This document shows positions 4,256 through 28,187 of a DNA stretch of 64,000 bases, in pieces (within the stretch, counting starts at the first letter, position 1; each line of letters begins with the position of its first letter). A model generated the notes under the pieces. That model was not told where the DNA came from. It searched no databases and saw only the letters and a program-made list of their open reading frames with translations. The DNA is from a virus. The DNA is taken from positions 1 through 64,000 of the IMG/VR virus record IMGVR_UViG_3300005077_000565, one strand, 5' to 3'. The position numbers and the translations under genes were made by a program.

Positions 4256-5017
4256 TTAATTGTATAGTGTGGCACCAAATTTGTTAAACAGATTAGTATA
4301 ATATGTGTGAACACGTGTCATTTCGCTGGACGACAGGGCTACTCCATATACTAATACACTAAACAAATAACCAGTATAAACTGTGCTGGCATATCCAGAA
4401 CCAATGCGTATACCATTGGACCTGACTACTGCTGTATTGGACCTGTTTGACAATACATTTCCACCCCAGGATCCGGCGTTCCATGCATAAGCAGATTGTC
4501 GATCTGCTGACATTTTGATTGCTCTTAGATTCCATTGGCTGGCAGTAGATACACCAAAATATCCATAATCATATGAATTATATTGCGTATAAAAACTTAT
4601 GTTGTTGTCGGTCTCCCAGGTACAGGCTAGTTCCTGTTCATAACTAGAGTAGGTATTAGGTACTTTTTCAAAAATTGTTCGGCGACTACCGGGCTGAACT
4701 GCATTAAACACCAGCACTAGTGTGAATTCACCAGTCATGTCTACACGGTTGCCATCAGCAGTTGATGATTCCCAGTATTTTGAACCATCAAATGCCAGAC
4801 AAGGCACTCCACTGACCGTGGTCTTTGTCATGTTACCACCCTGGGCATTCATGGCTATATTTTGTTGGACATCGTGCCAGACTGAACTCCCAGTATAATT
4901 CAATGCAGATAAATTAAACAATAGACCGCTTGTGGGGAGTGCAATGTAGTTTTTTAAGCGGCCATAGCTGTCAATGTCGTCAGCTGATAGTATTTTATCA
5001 CCTATGTACACCGTCAT
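4256..5017 (-). CDS. LamG/concanavalin A-like lectin domain protein
   Basis: GLLFNLSALNY...LAFDG...FTLVLVF...IRIG...VLVYGVALSSSEM pattern. Confidence 0.7.
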   Translation of the reverse strand: MTVYIGDKILSADDIDSYGRLKNYIALPTSGLLFNLSALNYTGSSVWHDVQQNIAMNAQGGNMTKTTVSGVPCLAFDGSKYWESSTADGNRVDMTGEFTLVLVFNAVQPGSRRTIFEKVPNTYSSYEQELACTWETDNNISFYTQYNSYDYGYFGVSTASQWNLRAIKMSADRQSAYAWNAGSWGGNVLSNRSNTAVVRSNGIRIGSGYASTVYTGYLFSVLVYGVALSSSEMTRVHTYYTNLFNKFGATLYN

Positions 5018-22124: not shown

Positions 22125-22967
22125 ATGACAGATAATCCATTAAAGACACTATATCGTAAGAAGAGCGTGTATATTTCATTGCCCAGCAACGGAAAATACT
22201 ACAACGGCGGTATCGCGCTGAGTGTTGACAATGAACTGGGCGTCATGCCCATGACAGCCTCCGACGAAATATTAATCAAAACACCGGATGCACTGTTCAA
22301 CGGTGAAGCCATCATTGGTCTAATTCGTAGCTGCGCACCGGACATTGCTCGACCCGAGGAAATGCCCAGTTGCGATCTAGACCTAGTACTGCTGGCTATA
22401 CGTCTAGCCACTAGTGGTGATAAACTAGAAGTATCCAGCACCTGCCCCAACTGCAACAGCGAAGATACATATGATGTTAGTCTGAGTCACATGATCGGAA
22501 CCGCTAAAAAGATCAACCCAGACAACCAAGTAGTTATTGATGAAAATACCACTGTGACAGTTCGTCCATACTCACTGCGCAGTCAGATGAAGGGCCAGGT
22601 TCAGAAATTCCATAATTATCGCATGCAACTGGCATTGAACGAAGATATCGACGAACAGGAAAAGGCTAAAATTTTCAATCAGGCACTGCTGGTAGCCAGT
22701 TCAATCAGTGTCCAGCTGGTAGCTGATAACATCACACGTGTAGTGGTTAAAAACGCAGAAACCGGTGAGGAAACATCGGTGACTAATCCCGATCATATTT
22801 TTGAATGGGTGGAAAATATGGACAGTGTAACCTATGAGAAGATCATCGAGCGCATTCGTTCGCTGAGTGACCCGCAACTGGATACCAGCATACACTTAAA
22901 ATGTGGTAATTGTCAGCATGAATACGACACCAGTGTCGAACTGAATCCCATGAATTTTTTCATATAA
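22125..22967 (+). CDS. gp26: baseplate hub/tape-measure assembly chaperone (T4 gp26-like)
   Basis: YISLPS.G..Y, PMTASDE, DLDLVLLAIRLAT.G, two CxxC motifs (CPNC, CGNC), ends in NFF. Confidence 0.75.
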   Translation: MTDNPLKTLYRKKSVYISLPSNGKYYNGGIALSVDNELGVMPMTASDEILIKTPDALFNGEAIIGLIRSCAPDIARPEEMPSCDLDLVLLAIRLATSGDKLEVSSTCPNCNSEDTYDVSLSHMIGTAKKINPDNQVVIDENTTVTVRPYSLRSQMKGQVQKFHNYRMQLALNEDIDEQEKAKIFNQALLVASSISVQLVADNITRVVVKNAETGEETSVTNPDHIFEWVENMDSVTYEKIIERIRSLSDPQLDTSIHLKCGNCQHEYDTSVELNPMNFFI

Positions 22968-22988
22968 GGGCCGCGGGGATGTCCCCGT
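22955..22988 (+). other. putative -1 programmed ribosomal frameshift signal (T TTT TTC plus hairpin gcgggg-atgt-ccccgt)
   Basis: X XXY YYZ heptamer in the correct phase just before the stop; the -1 frame is open into 22979..23194. Confidence 0.65.
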
Positions 22989-23194
22989 CTGAATTAAAGC
23001 AATATACCGACGAACTGACGGCCCAGATTAAATCATATGAACGGGGATTAATTGAATTAGCCATATATTCCAATGGCAGTGTAACCTATGCTGATCTACT
23101 GAATATGACTGTCAGTCAGATAGAGGTATACGAAAAATCCTTAAATGCCAAGATTAAATTCGATCGAGGGATTAAAACACAACAGATGTTATAA
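22979..23194 (+). CDS. gp51-like small assembly protein / frameshift extension of gp26
   Basis: In the -1 frame relative to the upstream gene; SVTYADLLNM motif; position. Confidence 0.6.
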   Translation: MSPSELKQYTDELTAQIKSYERGLIELAIYSNGSVTYADLLNMTVSQIEVYEKSLNAKIKFDRGIKTQQML

Positions 23195-23199
23195 TCTTA

Positions 23200-23680
23200 C
23201 TCACGGTGTCTACGACACCGGAAATTTCGCTATCGCTCAATTTCATTTTTAACTTACTCGACGTTTATTTTATTTTGTCTGATTGTGGATAATTGATATC
23301 AGACATATTATTAATTTAATATTCGATTTTACCATGAAGTCCAGTCACACTTAGCCTGATCGGCCAAGTGTTACCCAAACAAATGCTTTACCATTCATCC
23401 ATAGCCACACCACAATTCGAAAAACCTTTGTAACGTAAGGTGAAGGGCGGTTATGCGGTACCCTTTTACAATCTGCTTATAACGCAGGAACACAGCTGAC
23501 CAATTGTGGCGATCATGCTGCTACCCGTGGGTTCCAATAGTCCAGGAGAGCCCACTCATTTTCGGTTTGTCAAACCAACGCATTGACTTGCAACAACGTC
23601 ACACCCATCGGCTACGAGCCTTACCTCGGCAGAATCTTGACGGGTCGAGCTGCCTCGACCAAACAAAGTTGCTATGATTG
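23200..23680 (-). ncRNA. candidate large structured non-coding RNA (family unassigned; strand inferred from the upstream operon)
   Basis: About 490 bp without an ORF; many stems, e.g. ggtcgag/ctcgacc 23643-23660, 23347-23371, cggtgtc/gacaccg 23204-23220, long-range ccacaatt/aattgtgg. Confidence 0.6.
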
Positions 23681-23687
23681 TATTAAA

Positions 23688-24206
23688 TTATTTGCCAGTA
23701 CAGTTATTGCGGAATGAGTCTTTGTTGAGTTCAAAAAAGTCTTCAAAACATGTAATGCGCCAGGATGTGCCTAGGGAGTCTGTATAGTCTAGAGATCTAT
23801 TGGTTTTATAAGTTTTTGGGAGTTGGAATGCCACGAACCTGCCCTTGCGGTTGAATTTCATAAACAAAATGTTTACGTCATTAACATCAGAACTAGCATC
23901 TTTGATCTGCTCAATCCAACCTTCGAGAAGTGTAATGGGTTCATTAATTAAAAGCCTGTGAAACGGGAAGTCTGCATAATTCTTACACTCGACATTGAAC
24001 AACTTCCAATCGTCGGGTGGAATTATGTCCCCCTTGTGTGCCCTGATTTGCCCTTCAGTCAAACGATCGCGGCGATGAGCATTCTTACCGCCGGTAAACG
24101 CACCCGAGTCCGGTACTCGGGTAAAGCTGTCCTCATAGAGATCTGACAGGAAATTAGCAACCTCCCGTTCAAAACCCTTGCCTTTACTTTTGCTTTTACT
24201 TGCCAC
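23688..24206 (-). CDS. Holliday junction resolvase-like PD-(D/E)XK nuclease (Hjc-like)
   Basis: KGKGFEREVA...RVPDSGA...GDII...VECK. Confidence 0.8.
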   Translation of the reverse strand: MASKSKSKGKGFEREVANFLSDLYEDSFTRVPDSGAFTGGKNAHRRDRLTEGQIRAHKGDIIPPDDWKLFNVECKNYADFPFHRLLINEPITLLEGWIEQIKDASSDVNDVNILFMKFNRKGRFVAFQLPKTYKTNRSLDYTDSLGTSWRITCFEDFFELNKDSFRNNCTGK

Positions 24207-24537
24207 GCTTGCTTATTTTTTCTAAAATGTGAATGCCAATATCGTTGACATTGTATATTTTCCTATGTCCAGTATAACGCTTTTTTACTTCGTTGTCACG
24301 TGGTCTTTCGAAAATTGTTGATAGGTCATCAGAAGACAGTATACCTGAATTTATATATTGTTCATATAAATCAGTGGTGCGCTGTGCACTGCTGACGTAC
24401 TTATATTCGGTCTCATGAAATGTCACTGATTTGGGTGGAATTTCTAAAGTCTGACCAGAATCTAGGTCAGTTAAGATTATTCGTTCCTGATCACTGCTCG
24501 ACATAATCGGTATCCGAATTAAACGTAGTAAAACCAT
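24196..24537 (-). CDS. hypothetical protein (true start probably at MSSSDQ)
   Basis: Fills the gap between gp46 and the resolvase, overlapping both. Confidence 0.55.
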   Translation of the reverse strand: MVLLRLIRIPIMSSSDQERIILTDLDSGQTLEIPPKSVTFHETEYKYVSSAQRTTDLYEQYINSGILSSDDLSTIFERPRDNEVKKRYTGHRKIYNVNDIGIHILEKISKRGK

Positions 24538-26266
24538 TTTCTTTTACAACTTGTAGTGTATGGCTTACACGCCCCACTAGTTCGTCGCGATGGCTGATCA
24601 GGAAGATATTTTTATTTCTTTCACGAACCATACGTTTCAATACACCCAGTGCTGATTCAACACCGTTGCTGTCCATGCCACTGTCGATTAATTCGTCAAT
24701 GACCATGAAGTTGATGGGAGTATTCATACTTTCAAATACATCACGGAAACTCCAGCTTAGACCCAGGATCAGACGATTGCGTTCTCCGCGACTTAGGTTA
24801 TCAAAATCTAATTCTCGACCCAGCTCGGTGATTTCCACCGCTAGATCTGGTTTGAACTGAACTTCGTGCGGTAATCCCAACTTGGTCAGATAGTAGCCGA
24901 GTCGTGTGTTAAGATATGATAGATTTTGTTCAATAATGCGTTTACGGATAAAGCTGTCTTTATTAGTCAACAGCTTCATCAAAAATTCCTGGTGCTCACG
25001 CAGACGATTCAACTCGTTCATGATATTCCAGTCCACGGTCTGCAAACCTTCGTTCTGCAATGATTCAATCTGATCAGTATAAGGGTCAGTTTCTTCTAAC
25101 TTGTGTGTAAGTTGCGCTTGAAGTTGGATGACTTTATTCTTATGGTCATGTGCATCTGCAATGTTTTCATAAAATGTTTCCGGTGCAGCACCAGTGTCAC
25201 CCAGTAGACCTAATGCAGAATTTAATTCATCCAGCGTAGTATTGTTAGTGATTAATTGTTGCTCGGCATCAGACAGCGTGGATTGTTTACTGACTAAAAT
25301 TTCATTCTGTTTCTGATCGTGCATCTGGCCACCACATGCATAACATTTATGATCTAGTAATAGTTCGATTTCACGTTTTAGTTTTTCGATAAGTTTTTCC
25401 TGGCGTGCAGAATCAGCTTTGTTGTTGTTGATCTGTGTGGTCAGTTGGCGTCGGCGTTCCACATTAATGTGGTAAACTGCCAACTGTGCGTGCGCCGCTA
25501 ATTCAGCATCAATATCCAAGTGCTCTAGTGCACTTATGGCCTCCTGAAGACTGCTGATGTCAGTCACACGTTTTTCAGACCAGACACGCTGACGTCGTTC
25601 CAGATCTTTAATACTTTTCTGAATCGCAATATTAGCTTCCTCAATACCTTTGATTCTATATTCTTCTTCTTTGATGGCGTCCTTGGTGTCCTTCATCTGC
25701 TCTTTGAGCACGTTGGCCTTCTCACTGAGCATGGTGATACCCAGTAGCTGTTCGATGATATCTCGCTGATCATTGGCACGCATACTCAGGAAAGGCTCAG
25801 TGTAGGTATTAAGTGCCAGCACATGCTTGAACATAGTATGCCCAAGCCCAAAAATCTTTTCAATCTCTACCTGTGTTAAGCGACCTTCGCCCTGAATTTC
25901 ATCAGTAGCACCATCATGGAATTCGTGGTTATTGACTATGAATTTAAAAATATTAGGCTTACGACCGCGTTCAATGCGGTATTCGACCCCGTCCTTTTCA
26001 AAGTCAACAGTAACCAACATACCTTTGTTGTTAGTTTTATTAATTAAGTTGTCTTTTTTAATGTTAGTCAGCGCCTGGCCGTACAGTGCGTAACTTAGTG
26101 CGTTGACAATGGTGGTCTTGCCGGTGCCGTTACGACTCCCGTCACCACCTAGATCAACGTTGTTGCCTAGAACCAGGGTAAGTCCAGCATCGGTAAATCT
26201 CACTGCCTGAGTCACGTTACCGATTGACATGAAATTTTTTGCGGTAATTGCTTTGATATTAATCAT
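24491..26266 (-). CDS. gp46: recombination endonuclease ATPase subunit (gp46/Rad50/SbcC-like)
   Basis: KNFMSIG, Walker A NGTGKTT, zinc hook CYAC, signature LSRGE, Walker B VIDELID, ISH. Confidence 0.95.
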   Translation of the reverse strand: MINIKAITAKNFMSIGNVTQAVRFTDAGLTLVLGNNVDLGGDGSRNGTGKTTIVNALSYALYGQALTNIKKDNLINKTNNKGMLVTVDFEKDGVEYRIERGRKPNIFKFIVNNHEFHDGATDEIQGEGRLTQVEIEKIFGLGHTMFKHVLALNTYTEPFLSMRANDQRDIIEQLLGITMLSEKANVLKEQMKDTKDAIKEEEYRIKGIEEANIAIQKSIKDLERRQRVWSEKRVTDISSLQEAISALEHLDIDAELAAHAQLAVYHINVERRRQLTTQINNNKADSARQEKLIEKLKREIELLLDHKCYACGGQMHDQKQNEILVSKQSTLSDAEQQLITNNTTLDELNSALGLLGDTGAAPETFYENIADAHDHKNKVIQLQAQLTHKLEETDPYTDQIESLQNEGLQTVDWNIMNELNRLREHQEFLMKLLTNKDSFIRKRIIEQNLSYLNTRLGYYLTKLGLPHEVQFKPDLAVEITELGRELDFDNLSRGERNRLILGLSWSFRDVFESMNTPINFMVIDELIDSGMDSNGVESALGVLKRMVRERNKNIFLISHRDELVGRVSHTLQVVKENGFTTFNSDTDYVEQ

Positions 26267-27288
26267 AGATTTGCGTAAATGTCCATCAATAGTTTACTGT
26301 TGATAATTTCACTGTCAACCGCTTTAAGTTGATTGTATACAATCTGATCCACGTTTTCTACTTCAATATCACCGTCGGTGCGCCACTCAGTGGAATGCTC
26401 TTCTTTCTTAGCCGGCAGCAGACTGATTTCTCGAAGTTCGTATTGTTGAGCAAAAGTTTCTTTAATGAAGTTTGCCTCTTCGTAGCTAATGGGGACATCC
26501 AGCGTGACACGACAATGTGTGTTTCGATTCAAATATTCGCCGGGATTATCAATGAGCTTGCTCAATGGTAGAGTACGATAACGTGGTGCATCCGGCCAGT
26601 TACGGTATTCAGGGACACCACCCCACTCTAAAATCATCATACCACGTTCGTCATCCCAGGCATCTGCATAATTGTGTGGAAACGGATTACCGATATAGTG
26701 CACTTTTCCATTAGACTGGCGTTTGTGAAAGTGCCCACTAAACACATAGTCCGGGGACTCGAAATGGCTGTGATTTAAGCCGCCGTGGTCAGGCATTTCC
26801 ACCATGGCGTTCATCTTGAAGTGGGGCAGTTCGAAATGTCCAAACACATACTTGGATTTTAGACGCGGCATTTTACGCCACTCTTCTTCCACCAACCAGG
26901 GAACAATCGCCACACCATCGCGCTCGACAATGGCATCGTTCACCACATGCACATTACTGTGTAAACTAGCATAGGGCATACTATGAATTTCACGCTTTTC
27001 ACGATAATATAGATCGTGGTTACCCATGATCAAATAGACATCCTCAAAGGCTTCACTCAATCGCTTGATATTGGGTACTGTGTAATTAAGTGTACTTACA
27101 TTAACAGTACTACGATGATGGTGCCAGTCTCCTAGAAATATACAGGTTTCACAACCAGCTTCCTTGGCCTGTTCGATGAACCAGTAGATAAAACGCTCAC
27201 AGTCGTCGTTGTGTTGTCGGCTGTTGTTTTTATTACCAAAATGAATGTCAGTGAAACACGCTACTTTTTTAAAGAATGTCTTGCTCAT
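26263..27288 (-). CDS. gp47: recombination endonuclease nuclease subunit (gp47/Mre11/SbcD-like)
   Basis: TDIHFG, LGDW, GNHD, GHF, SGHFH metallophosphoesterase motifs. Confidence 0.95.
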   Translation of the reverse strand: MSKTFFKKVACFTDIHFGNKNNSRQHNDDCERFIYWFIEQAKEAGCETCIFLGDWHHHRSTVNVSTLNYTVPNIKRLSEAFEDVYLIMGNHDLYYREKREIHSMPYASLHSNVHVVNDAIVERDGVAIVPWLVEEEWRKMPRLKSKYVFGHFELPHFKMNAMVEMPDHGGLNHSHFESPDYVFSGHFHKRQSNGKVHYIGNPFPHNYADAWDDERGMMILEWGGVPEYRNWPDAPRYRTLPLSKLIDNPGEYLNRNTHCRVTLDVPISYEEANFIKETFAQQYELREISLLPAKKEEHSTEWRTDGDIEVENVDQIVYNQLKAVDSEIINSKLLMDIYANL

Positions 27289-27311: not shown

Positions 27312-28187
27312 TTAGAGATCAGTGTCATCATCGTGTGATTCGTAAGCATGTGCTTCACGAGCTCGACGATGTGCATCTTCGGTATCTAGCTGTCTACCAA
27401 AACTCGGTGCTTGACCCATTTCCTGTAACAGATCATCGCGGAGATTCTGATTACGTTTTTCCAAGTTTAAAACTCTAGTAAAGCTATTAGTAATGGCTGC
27501 TGTGTAGTAGGCAAACGGGTTCTGACTCTTACTTTCATCAAAGTACAGGCCAATCTGAGACAACTGCATCAGCGCATGACTTCGCATTTCGTCGACGTAG
27601 GTATAACCCCGCCAGTTACTACGCATACTGTATCGTTGACATAGCATGATCATCATACTAGCCAATTTCTCAGTAATCCTGCCATGTGTGACAGAAAACT
27701 TACCGGTAGTTAAGTCGCCACGCCAGTGGCTGCGGACAACTTCCTGCCAGCCGCCAGCACGCCAGACTACATGTTTGAACGGTGGGAAATTGCACTTGGA
27801 GTGATGGTCAGCAGTGGATTTAGGTTTATTCTTACGCCCGGGTTCAGCGGGTACATGAGCAAACGTCATTACACGTATAACTATGTCTTCTTTGGGGATC
27901 GTTGCCCCGTCAAATTTAAAATCAATAAGTCTGGGTTTGTCTTTTAATTTTTTAGTTTCAGATGACTCCCAGGCTGCTAGTGCCTGAGCGTAGTTTTCAG
28001 CCGCCAGACGATCTGCTCGTGTTTGCTGAGCCTCATCTAATAGGCGATCGGTGATTTCAGCAACATCATACACAATTGCGTCTTCGTTGTAATATTTTCG
28101 ATCTTCAATGTAACAAAAACTTAATTTACTCTTATGAATTTCTTTTAACAGTTCTTTGTTGTTTAGATAGTTAACTTTTTTAGTCAT
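27312..28187 (-). CDS. gp55: late transcription sigma factor (T4 gp55 family)
   Basis: NYLNNKELL...NWRGYTYVDEM...FDESKSQNPFAYYT...NSFTRVLNLEK; adjacent to gp47/gp46 as in T4-like phages. Confidence 0.88.
   Translation of the reverse strand: MTKKVNYLNNKELLKEIHKSKLSFCYIEDRKYYNEDAIVYDVAEITDRLLDEAQQTRADRLAAENYAQALAAWESSETKKLKDKPRLIDFKFDGATIPKEDIVIRVMTFAHVPAEPGRKNKPKSTADHHSKCNFPPFKHVVWRAGGWQEVVRSHWRGDLTTGKFSVTHGRITEKLASMMIMLCQRYSMRSNWRGYTYVDEMRSHALMQLSQIGLYFDESKSQNPFAYYTAAITNSFTRVLNLEKRNQNLRDDLLQEMGQAPSFGRQLDTEDAHRRAREAHAYESHDDDTDL

What the first reader, a model, noticed from the sequence alone, without database searches (positions are those of the whole stretch)
23200..23680. Candidate ~490-nt highly structured RNA directly downstream of a resolvase-like nuclease
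Seen: one of only two long gaps in the ORF track of this densely coding window, and unlike the other (11.1-11.8 kb) it shows no gene remnants. It is packed with stems: ggtcgag/ctcgacc (23643-60), ggct/agcc (23610-20), ggttt/aaacc (23564-76), gtggg/cccac (23527-55), ctgc/gcag (23473-87), aaggg/ccctt around an internal cggttatgcggta (23443-65), acctt/aaggt (23424-41), long-range ccacaatt (23410-17) with aattgtgg (23502-09), a 10-bp stem (23347-71), tgtctgat/atcagaca (23276-305) and cggtgtc/gacaccg (23204-20). A minus-strand motif agca(ac)tttgtttgg followed by a hairpin occurs twice, near each end. The 23347-71 stem pairs fully (with a G-U) only on the minus strand. Known: phages carry large ornate RNAs (GOLLD, ROOL), and some nucleases partner with adjacent RNAs. 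Inference: a non-coding RNA co-transcribed with gp55-gp47-gp46-resolvase, possibly a new class or an RNP partner; a structured replication origin is the alternative.
Basis: partly seen in the sequence, partly recalled or inferred. Interest (0 to 1): 0.8.

Follow-up and report, generated by a model that had tools for sequence, protein, structure and literature searches.

The report
Twin-box knotted RNA of jumbo phages
The gene-free gap behind this uncultured giant T4-like phage's small nuclease gene encodes a real, roughly 470-base, doubly knotted non-coding RNA from a widespread family that RNA catalogues hold only as one fragment (Polynucleobacter-1); its job is unknown, and the nuclease next door is a swappable neighbour, not its partner.

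Summary
Observation confirmed. Window 23204-23673, minus strand, is a conserved multi-domain non-coding RNA. A covariance model built here finds it in more than 50 IMG/VR contigs at the same place: the end of the gp55-gp47-gp46 operon, convergent with the baseplate-hub genes. In the core, 95.8% of pair cells are standard pairs (shuffles 77.8%) and 32 of 37 pairs change on both sides. Two pseudoknots covary. G-U pairs fix the strand. There is no conserved ORF.

The 3' part holds two 8-9 nt boxes flanking a long hairpin. The boxes differ between lineages but stay alike within each RNA. Two terminal hairpins follow.

Rfam and ARAGORN find nothing in the window. A sister branch (L029) has Rfam's orphan Polynucleobacter-1 motif as its 5' domain. 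The flanks in Weinberg's 2010 alignment carry the same core and boxes. So this is an uncatalogued variant of a family known only as a fragment.

The upstream gene is interchangeable: PDDEXK nuclease here, SegE-type GIY-YIG in the closest relatives. Copies in small Burkholderiales (Polynucleobacter-sized) genomes have neither. This argues against a nuclease-RNA pair.

Function is unknown. My best guess is a stand-alone folded RNA or RNP scaffold; an origin or primer RNA is the main rival. This scan has found the same family before on other DNA.

The parts
23204..23673 (-). Whole conserved RNA (about 470 nt): 5' domain, pseudoknotted core, twin-box 3' domain, AU-rich linker, terminal hairpins Ha and Hb
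   Evidence: Conservation and covariation in relatives. Coordinates and pairing checked. The ends are inferred from where conservation stops, not mapped.
23661..23673 (-). Conserved leader just upstream of P1; possible 5' end or processing site
   Evidence: Conserved in the window's closest group although the upstream gene differs. No sigma-70-like promoter or T4 late-promoter match here; inference only.
23643..23660 (-). P1 hairpin (7 bp, 4-nt loop)
   Evidence: Compensatory changes in alignment A3. Shared with the 'type 2' variant RNAs. Pairing checked.
23597..23642 (-). P2 closing helix (23639-42 with 23597-600) around the variable hairpin P2a (23625-28 with 23615-18)
   Evidence: P2 covaries: three different 4-bp versions occur in relatives. 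P2a changes sequence but stays paired.
23564..23576 (-). P3 hairpin (5 bp, 3-nt loop)
   Evidence: Invariant sequence in groups A and B. Replaced by a different paired hairpin in group C.
23527..23555 (-). P4 two-part hairpin (23551-55/23527-31 and 23545-47/23533-35) with a conserved internal loop
   Evidence: 9 of 10 pairs covary or are kept in 42 distinct sequences; 99.5-100% of cells are paired.
23487..23526 (-). P5 helix (23524-26/23487-89 and 23517-21/23492-96); its loop holds the 5' strand of pseudoknot 1
   Evidence: Up to 5 pair types per position, with G-U pairs that only work on this strand.
23500..23509 (-). Pseudoknot 1, 5' strand (in the P5 loop)
   Evidence: RNAduplex of the P5 loop against the tail gives a 7-15 bp duplex in nearly all of 41 distinct sequences, with unrelated sequences between lineages.
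23410..23419 (-). Pseudoknot 1, 3' strand (after P8)
   Evidence: As above. 9 of 10 positions pair in the window.
23474..23486 (-). P6 hairpin; loop bases 23479-83 form pseudoknot 2 (a kissing loop)
   Evidence: The P6-loop pentamer pairs with the 3' half of the P7 loop. Six covarying versions occur, and all five positions pair in 32 of 40 distinct sequences.
23443..23465 (-). P7 hairpin (6 bp) with a conserved 11-nt loop; loop bases 23450-54 pair with the P6 loop
   Evidence: Six pairs, all with both-side changes. It is the most conserved motif of the family. Kissing loop shown.
23424..23441 (-). P8 hairpin (5 bp)
   Evidence: All five pairs covary.
23386..23394 (-). Box X (first twin box)
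   Evidence: The same 8-mer occurs again 59 nt downstream. Relatives have a lineage-specific 7-10-mer twice at the homologous positions.
23339..23380 (-). P9a/P9 long hairpin (6 + 10 bp) between the boxes
   Evidence: Covariation with several G-U/A-U exchanges on this strand. Extended stem seen in folds of the inter-box segment. Pairing checked.
23327..23335 (-). Box X' (second twin box)
   Evidence: longest shared word between X and X' is 7.1 nt on average within a lineage, against 4.3 +/- 1.1 between lineages.
23276..23305 (-). Hairpin in the AU-rich linker, window-specific; not a conserved part
   Evidence: This stretch is absent from the closest relatives.
23221..23244 (-). Ha hairpin: 6-bp outer stem, symmetric GA/GA internal loop (candidate tandem sheared G-A pairs), 2-bp inner stem, GNNA loop
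   Evidence: Present in all RNA types, in the bacterial copies and in E. coli phage BF17. The outer stem covaries. The G-A geometry is inferred.
23204..23220 (-). Hb hairpin (7 bp); last conserved element, likely the 3' end
   Evidence: All seven pairs show both-side changes across 15 sequences. No U tract follows.
23688..24206 (-). Neighbour, not a part: PDDEXK_15 nuclease gene (PHROG name 'RusA-like resolvase')
   Evidence: Pfam PF24608 E = 5e-27 and phrog_244. Replaced by a SegE GIY-YIG gene in the closest relatives.

Best explanation
Window 23204-23673 (minus strand) is the gene of a large, multi-domain non-coding RNA.

Shown:
- It folds into about twelve helices and two pseudoknots: P5 loop with the tail after P8, and P6 loop with P7 loop.
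- A 3' domain follows in which two identical 8-9 nt single-stranded boxes flank a long hairpin.
- Two terminal hairpins close it, one with a GA/GA internal loop.
- The fold is kept by compensatory changes in dozens of uncultured jumbo T4-like phages at the same syntenic place.
- It is non-coding and strand-specific.
- It belongs to a modular superfamily with interchangeable 5' domains and cores. One 5' domain is Rfam's Polynucleobacter-1 motif.
- The superfamily also sits in genomic islands of small Burkholderiales (Polynucleobacter-sized) genomes.

Inferred:
- It is transcribed as the 3' extension of the gp55-gp47-gp46-nuclease operon and then trimmed.
- It acts as a stand-alone folded RNA, most likely the scaffold of an RNA-protein particle.
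- It presents the same short recognition word twice to a partner that co-varies with it, whether nucleic acid or protein.
- The nuclease genes in front of it (PDDEXK here, SegE elsewhere) are free-standing homing-type endonucleases parked beside a highly conserved RNA gene, as SegB sits in T4's tRNA cluster. They are not its partners.

My confidence that it is a real RNA of this family is about 0.95. My confidence in the trans-acting scaffold mechanism is about 0.35.
For: - Family and synteny: model R1 hits the window at 182 bits and about 54 contigs, always downstream of gp46.
- Covariation: 95.8% of cells paired against 77.8 +/- 0.6 in shuffles; 32 of 37 pairs change on both sides; slid controls give 34-51%.
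- Pseudoknot 1 is kept with unrelated sequences. Pseudoknot 2 has six covarying versions.
- The 5' and 3' helices covary.
- Strand: G-U pairs.
- Non-coding.
- Twin boxes.
- Modularity: type 2 RNA has 80 predicted pairs, 38 with compensatory changes; type 3 seen.
- L029 = RF01718 (63 bits) followed directly by the R1 core. Weinberg's flanking sequences carry the same core and boxes.
- Bacterial copies.
- Interchangeable upstream gene. PSSM2_218, the gene Weinberg linked to the motif, is a SegE GIY-YIG protein.
- No promoter-like site between the nuclease stop and P1.
Against: - There are no expression data for this phage. The ends are not mapped and no partner is known.
- No Watson-Crick complement of the boxes lies within 3 kb, so what the boxes recognise is open.
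- Strict synteny at an operon end would also fit a cis-acting role.
- The family's presence in both phages and bacterial islands with an integrase would also fit a cis-acting replication or packaging signal borrowed by a parasitic element.
- Alignment A2 was fitted to the model, which flatters the pair counts. The pseudoknot tests do not depend on modelled pairs.
Confidence: 0.6

Rival explanations
1. Origin or primer RNA. The transcript folds so that part of it stays hybridised to the template (an R-loop, as with ColE1 RNA II or T4 oriF/oriG) and primes phage DNA replication. Bacterial islands carry a copy in order to be replicated by the phage.
For: - It sits beside recombination and replication genes.
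- The same element lies in bacterial islands next to an integrase.
- Earlier agents of this scan proposed this reading on other DNA; that is a lead, not evidence.
Against: - There is no GC-skew turn at the locus, though skew says little for recombination-driven T4-type replication.
- No promoter was found in front of it.
- Two pseudoknots, GNRA-like loops and a GA/GA loop are more than known primer RNAs need.
- Nothing here tests hybrid formation.
Confidence: 0.2
2. Cis-acting 3' UTR element. It protects, terminates or processes the gp55-gp47-gp46 mRNA at the point where early/middle and late transcription converge.
For: - It always lies at the operon end, and no promoter of its own was detected.
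- The terminal hairpins Ha and Hb abut the convergent gene's stop.
Against: - About 470 nt with two covarying pseudoknots and conserved loops is far beyond what 3' end protection needs.
- The bacterial copies are not at the end of such an operon.
- No hairpin is followed by a U tract.
Confidence: 0.12
3. One reading: the RNA is the guide or partner of the adjacent nuclease, forming an RNA-nuclease system like TnpB/IscB omega RNAs.
For: - In the phage loci examined a nuclease gene lies upstream of the RNA. In most it is immediately upstream; L084 and L089 have an extra ORF of about 102 aa in between.
- Weinberg also noted the gene link.
Against: - Two unrelated nuclease folds (PDDEXK_15 and SegE GIY-YIG) alternate in front of near-identical RNAs.
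- Bacterial copies have DUF6641 and unknown ORFs instead.
- SegE proteins are known protein-only homing endonucleases (established knowledge).
Confidence: 0.05
4. It is a ribozyme (self-processing or trans-cleaving). The twin boxes mark two equivalent processing or substrate sites around P9.
For: - The size, pseudoknots and invariant unpaired bases resemble catalytic RNAs.
- The boxes are single-stranded and duplicated.
Against: No match to any ribozyme family in Rfam. No cleavage data. This is a pure analogy.
Confidence: 0.08

Closest known systems
Polynucleobacter-1 RNA motif (Rfam RF01718; Weinberg et al. 2010, PMC2864571)
   Same: - It belongs to the same superfamily and lies in the same context.
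- In L029 the motif (63 bits) is the 5' domain, followed directly by the core found in the window.
- Weinberg's flanking sequences, including the Polynucleobacter chromosome, carry the core, the twin boxes and Ha.
- Weinberg reported the motif downstream of genes like PSSM2_218. That gene is a SegE GIY-YIG, the same gene family that precedes the RNA in the window's closest relatives.
   Different: - The window's own 5' domain gives no RF01718 hit even at E <= 10.
- The Rfam model covers only 141 nt. It lacks the pseudoknotted core, the twin boxes and Ha/Hb.
- The motif was filed as a possible cis-regulator and was not seen in any purified phage.
GOLLD and ROOL large phage-associated RNAs (Rfam)
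   Same: They are large, ornate RNAs of unknown function carried by phages or prophages, with interchangeable 5' parts (GOLLD subtypes are listed). (The comparison rests on my own knowledge.)
   Different: - No sequence or structure match.
- This RNA is smaller.
- There are no tRNA genes nearby.
- The twin-box and GA-loop modules are not features of those families as far as I know.
ColE1 RNA II and T4 oriF/oriG origin transcripts
   Same: A structured transcript next to replication and recombination genes that could prime DNA synthesis (analogy from established knowledge).
   Different: No promoter/DUE arrangement, no antisense partner and no hybrid-forming tract were identified. None of this was testable here.
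Syntenic ORF-free gap of E. coli jumbo phage BF17 (Asteriusvirus), L151 7659-8495
   Same: - Same gene order: gp55, gp47, gp46, small nuclease, gap, small ORF, baseplate hub, portal.
- The gap holds an Ha-type hairpin with GA/GA loop and a second Ha-like one.
- It also holds a 13-14 nt imperfect repeat (one internal mismatch) twice, 83 nt apart, around a GC hairpin.
   Different: The core model R1 does not hit it, so homology of the core is unproven. The nuclease there is annotated as endonuclease VII and lies on the other strand.

Membership tests
Rfam RF01718 Polynucleobacter-1 | Covariance-model score at or above the gathering score (37 bits) | tested here: not met
   No hit in the window at the gathering score, nor at E <= 10 over 23000-23900. 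The sister locus L029 scores 63 bits.
Rfam RF01718 Polynucleobacter-1 | Lies downstream of a GOS11034 / PSSM2_218-like gene (Weinberg 2010, Additional file 1) | tested here: inconclusive
   PSSM2_218 is a SegE GIY-YIG by Pfam (E = 6e-54). The window has a PDDEXK_15 gene instead. Its closest relatives have SegE at that spot.
Twin-box jumbo-phage RNA superfamily (defined here and by earlier agents of this scan) | P4-P8 core with pseudoknot 1 (P5 loop to tail) and pseudoknot 2 (P6 loop to P7 loop) | tested here: met
   window coordinates checked. The window was one of the ten sequences used to build the model, so its 182-bit score is partly by construction. The covariation among the other sequences is independent of it.
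Twin-box jumbo-phage RNA superfamily (defined here and by earlier agents of this scan) | Two near-identical 7-10 nt boxes flanking a long hairpin, followed by the Ha (GA/GA loop) and Hb hairpins | tested here: met
   Boxes at 23386-94 and 23327-35; Ha at 23221-44; Hb at 23204-20.
GOLLD / ROOL / other catalogued large RNAs, ribozymes, riboswitches, group I/II introns | Match to the family's Rfam model | tested here: not met
   Zero Rfam hits in the whole window and in the region at E <= 10. Nothing else was found in 16 related loci.
tRNA / tmRNA | Detected by ARAGORN | tested here: not met
   None in the window or in the 168-kb record.
Nuclease guide RNAs (TnpB/IscB omega-RNA type) | Constant pairing of the RNA with one nuclease family | tested here: not met
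   PDDEXK_15 and SegE alternate upstream. Bacterial copies have neither.
Origin/primer RNA (ColE1 RNA II, T4 oriF type) | Persistent RNA-DNA hybrid at a mapped replication start | not testable with these tools
   Only GC skew could be examined, and it is uninformative.

The most novel reading that the evidence does not exclude
The twin-box RNA is a new class of large functional RNA shared by jumbo T4-like phages and small bacterial islands. Its pseudoknotted core is a catalytic or protein-recruiting engine. Its two identical, lineage-specific boxes act as a bivalent, programmable recognition module, for instance gripping two copies of a nucleic-acid target or starting replication. The islands carry it to exploit or to sense the phage.
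Probability: 0.25. Interest if true: 0.85.

Novelty: new variant of a known kind. Interest (0 to 1): 0.7.

Why it matters
Large, intricately folded RNAs of unknown function are rare, and each one has repaid study (RNase P, tmRNA, OLE, GOLLD, ROOL).

- This one is common in uncultured giant phages of waters and has a copy in bacterial chromosomes.
- It shows that a 16-year-old orphan Rfam motif is only the first third of a much larger, modular RNA.
- The co-evolving twin boxes point to a sequence-specific partner that can be looked for.
- A related element in the same place in cultured E. coli Asteriusvirus phages would make the family testable at the bench.
- The work also corrects a tempting misreading: a nuclease plus an RNA here is not a guide-RNA system.

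Tried and rejected
- Rfam at the gathering score and at E <= 10, and ARAGORN: nothing in the window.
- blastn of the gap and of its surroundings against 50,697 phage records: no match.
- Model R1 on Pseudomonas phage PA5oct and Sinorhizobium phage Phosso loci: noise only. Rfam on them: nothing.
- Pattern scan of 185,579 prokaryote genomes for the group A/B core: 16 chance matches, none confirmed by R1.
- Protein-coding reading: rejected.
- Search for a Watson-Crick complement of the boxes inside the RNA and within 3 kb: none consistent.
- The idea that the U-rich tract pairs alternately with X or X': dropped, because that tract forms the base of P9.
- A single 8-mer repeat is not significant on its own (shuffles average 6.6). 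The signal is its recurrence at homologous positions.
- DUF6641, the divergent neighbour in bacteria, as a universal partner: absent from this record and from three jumbo-phage genomes at least 92% complete.
- PSSM2_218 as a homologue of the PDDEXK nuclease: no.
- Promoter and terminator scan: nothing useful.
- GC skew: follows transcription, with no turn at the locus.
- The supplement of the 2023 catalogue of 10,006 viral structured RNAs (PMC10690425) is not held, so I could not check whether short pieces of this RNA are listed there.

Full report
SETTING. The window is the first 64 kb of a 168-kb IMG/VR virus record, estimated about 47% complete. That makes it a jumbo T4-like phage. Its portal and gp46 are about 50% identical to those of Pseudomonas phage PA5oct, Sinorhizobium phage Phosso and Agrobacterium phage Atu_ph07.

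Genes around the finding:
- Minus strand: gp55 late sigma factor (27312-28187), gp47 (26263-27288), gp46 (24491-26266), a 113-aa ORF, and a 172-aa PDDEXK_15 nuclease (23688-24206; the PHROG name is 'RusA-like').
- Plus strand, converging: a gp26-type baseplate hub (22125-22967) and a 71-aa ORF (22979-23194).

The 493-nt gap 23195-23687 therefore lies between two gene ends.

OBSERVATION. The gap holds only short ORFs. It folds better than shuffles on both strands, with z-scores of -2.9 and -3.2. Rfam finds nothing in the window, even at E <= 10 on the region alone. ARAGORN finds nothing.

RELATIVES AND COVARIATION.
- The nuclease protein brought in 80 IMG/VR loci.
- blastn of the gap against them showed a 170-nt stretch at 73-79% identity in loci whose nuclease is only about 60% identical. 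The alignment showed helix-preserving double changes.
- A covariance model (R1) then found the element on the same strand, just downstream of the operon, in about 54 loci. These include more distant versions at 15-97 bits and 43 further contigs fetched by a DNA pattern.
- On the 42 distinct sequences, 95.8% of pair cells are standard pairs (shuffles 77.8 +/- 0.6, 0 of 500 as high). 32 of 37 pairs change on both sides. Sliding the partners gives 34-51%. That alignment is fitted to the model, so I also tested two tertiary pairings that the model does not contain.
- Pseudoknot 1: the P5 loop pairs with the tail after P8 by 7-15 bp in nearly every lineage, with unrelated sequences.
- Pseudoknot 2: a pentamer in the P6 loop pairs with the 3' half of the conserved 11-nt P7 loop. 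Six covarying versions occur.
- Frequent G-U pairs would be A-C mismatches on the plus strand, so the minus strand is the functional one.
- The longest ORFs change frame and strand between relatives, and variable columns show no 3-base periodicity.

EXTENT.
- Upstream, conservation reaches a leader, the P1 hairpin and a closing helix P2 around a variable hairpin.
- Downstream, it reaches a long hairpin P9a/P9. After an AU-rich linker come two terminal hairpins.
- Ha has a covarying outer stem, a symmetric GA/GA internal loop, a short inner stem and a GNNA loop. Hb follows it.
- Ha and Hb occur in every variant of the family, in the bacterial copies and in E. coli phage BF17. I therefore count them as part of the RNA.
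All window coordinates and pairings were checked by script.
- The hairpin at 23276-305 lies in a stretch that the closest relatives lack.

TWIN BOXES.
- The same 8-mer stands at 23387-94 and again at 23328-35, on either side of P9.
- Every lineage has its own 7-10-mer twice at the homologous positions, and usually nowhere else in the locus.
- The longest shared word between the two box regions averages 7.1 nt within a lineage, against 4.3 +/- 1.1 between lineages.
- A single such repeat is not above chance. The recurrence at homologous positions is the signal.
- No complement of the boxes lies in the RNA or within 3 kb. What they recognise is unexplained.

A MODULAR SUPERFAMILY, PARTLY CATALOGUED.
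- At the same locus other contigs carry variant RNAs.
- 'Type 2' has the same P1 and closing helix, a larger core, boxes and Ha. RNAalifold predicts 80 pairs, 38 of them with compensatory changes in only seven sequences.
- 'Type 3' has another 5' domain.
- In L029 the 5' domain is Rfam RF01718, the Polynucleobacter-1 motif (63 bits; gathering score 37). The R1 core follows it directly.
- Weinberg et al. 2010 described that motif as found mostly downstream of genes like PSSM2_218. They noted that its 3' half is variable and that it was not seen in any purified phage.
- Their Stockholm file shows, in the unaligned flanks, the P7 loop, the boxes and Ha of this family, including in the Polynucleobacter chromosome.
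- PSSM2_218 is a SegE GIY-YIG endonuclease by Pfam.

THE NUCLEASE IS A NEIGHBOUR.
- The window's closest relatives have gp46 75-79% and portal 76-78% identical. They keep the RNA but carry a SegE GIY-YIG gene where the window has the PDDEXK gene. Some group A loci do the same.
- Two unrelated nuclease folds alternating in one intergenic slot beside a highly conserved RNA gene is the signature of free-standing homing endonucleases. T4 SegB in the tRNA cluster is the precedent (established knowledge).

BACTERIAL COPIES.
- RF01718 hits 3 of 151 sampled genomes of one order, inferred to be Burkholderiales from the Gallionellaceae MAG used as the centre. A fourth hit is weak. All four genomes are 1.7-1.9 Mb.
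- In two of them the full RNA (core, boxes, Ha, Hb) lies in an island next to a divergent DUF6641 gene.
- One island also has a tyrosine integrase and Zorya-type ZorC and ZorD genes. The other has a type III restriction-modification system.
- DUF6641 is absent from this phage record and from three nearly complete jumbo-phage genomes.
- The family is therefore not confined to phages, and it is not a decaying remnant in bacteria.

CULTURED RELATIVES.
- PA5oct and Phosso have ORF-poor stretches of about 1 kb near their RusA-like gene, but no R1 or Rfam hit.
- E. coli phage BF17 (Asteriusvirus) has the same gene order and an 837-nt ORF-free gap. The gap holds Ha-type hairpins and a 13-14 nt imperfect repeat (one internal mismatch) occurring twice around a GC hairpin. 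R1 does not hit its core.

FUNCTION. Nothing here shows function. The choice is between these readings:
- (a) A trans-acting folded RNA or RNP scaffold. This is favoured by its complexity, GNRA-like loops, the GA/GA loop, its modular build and its presence in unrelated genomic contexts.
- (b) An origin or primer RNA. The neighbourhood and the sharing with integrase-bearing islands fit this. GC skew is uninformative.
- (c) A cis-acting 3' UTR element.
- (d) A ribozyme.

I commit to (a) at about 0.35. The identity of the element as a real RNA of this family I put at about 0.95.

EARLIER NOTES OF THIS SCAN. After I had reached these conclusions, a look-up showed that at least eight other windows from other genomes had led agents to the same family, the same closest known motif and the same 'twin box' feature. 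Some proposed a replication role, expression, and relatives in E. coli giant phages. I tested only the E. coli lead, and only in part.

Noticed in passing
L098 11097-11558 (-), L089 2338-2787 (+), L105 4637-5089 (+): A SegE-type GIY-YIG homing endonuclease gene occupies the slot that the PDDEXK_15 nuclease gene holds in the window. This is a homing-endonuclease hot spot beside the RNA gene; the target sites are unknown.
   Followed up: partly
L149 (G050:C4:64000-82000) and L150 (G092:C1:641000-659000): Full-length copies of the RNA sit in small Burkholderiales (Polynucleobacter-sized) chromosomes, each next to a divergent DUF6641 gene. One island has a tyrosine integrase and Zorya-like ZorC/ZorD genes; the other has a type III R-M system and DUF6876. 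This could be a mobile island linked to jumbo phages.
   Followed up: partly
L151 7659-8495 (Escherichia phage BF17, MW822008.1): An 837-nt ORF-free gap in the same synteny holds two Ha-type hairpins and a 13-14 nt imperfect repeat (one internal mismatch) occurring twice, 83 nt apart, around a GC hairpin. It is a candidate cultured model for the family.
   Followed up: partly
L053, L062, L064, L066, L067, L072, L075 (about 4560-5000) and L005, L009, L013, L017: Two further variant RNAs occupy the same locus. Type 2 has 80 predicted pairs, 38 of them compensatory. Type 3 has a 5' hairpin resembling Polynucleobacter-1's first hairpin. Neither has a significant Rfam match: L053, L005, L009 and L017 were also searched at E <= 1, where the only hit over all seven sources of that search was a chance-level one in L084; the other loci were searched at the gathering score only.
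   Followed up: partly
L124 7000-8500 (PA5oct) and L125 7400-8400 (Phosso): These are ORF-poor, GC-richer stretches of about 1 kb beside the RusA-like gene, annotated only with tiny hypothetical ORFs. They may hold other large RNAs. There was no R1 or Rfam hit.
   Followed up: partly
L144 26712-27149 (P-SSM2 PSSM2_218): RefSeq annotates this 145-aa protein as 'NAD synthetase'. Pfam places it firmly in SegE_GIY-YIG (E = 6e-54).
   Followed up: yes
window 23276-23305: An 8-bp hairpin lies in a stretch of about 50 nt within the AU-rich linker that the closest relatives lack. It is probably a recent insertion.
   Followed up: partly
window 22950-23194: Another first-reader note proposes a -1 frameshift joining the gp26-like gene to the 71-aa ORF. 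That ORF is conserved (42-51% identity) next to the hub gene in relatives. The frameshift itself was not examined.
   Followed up: no
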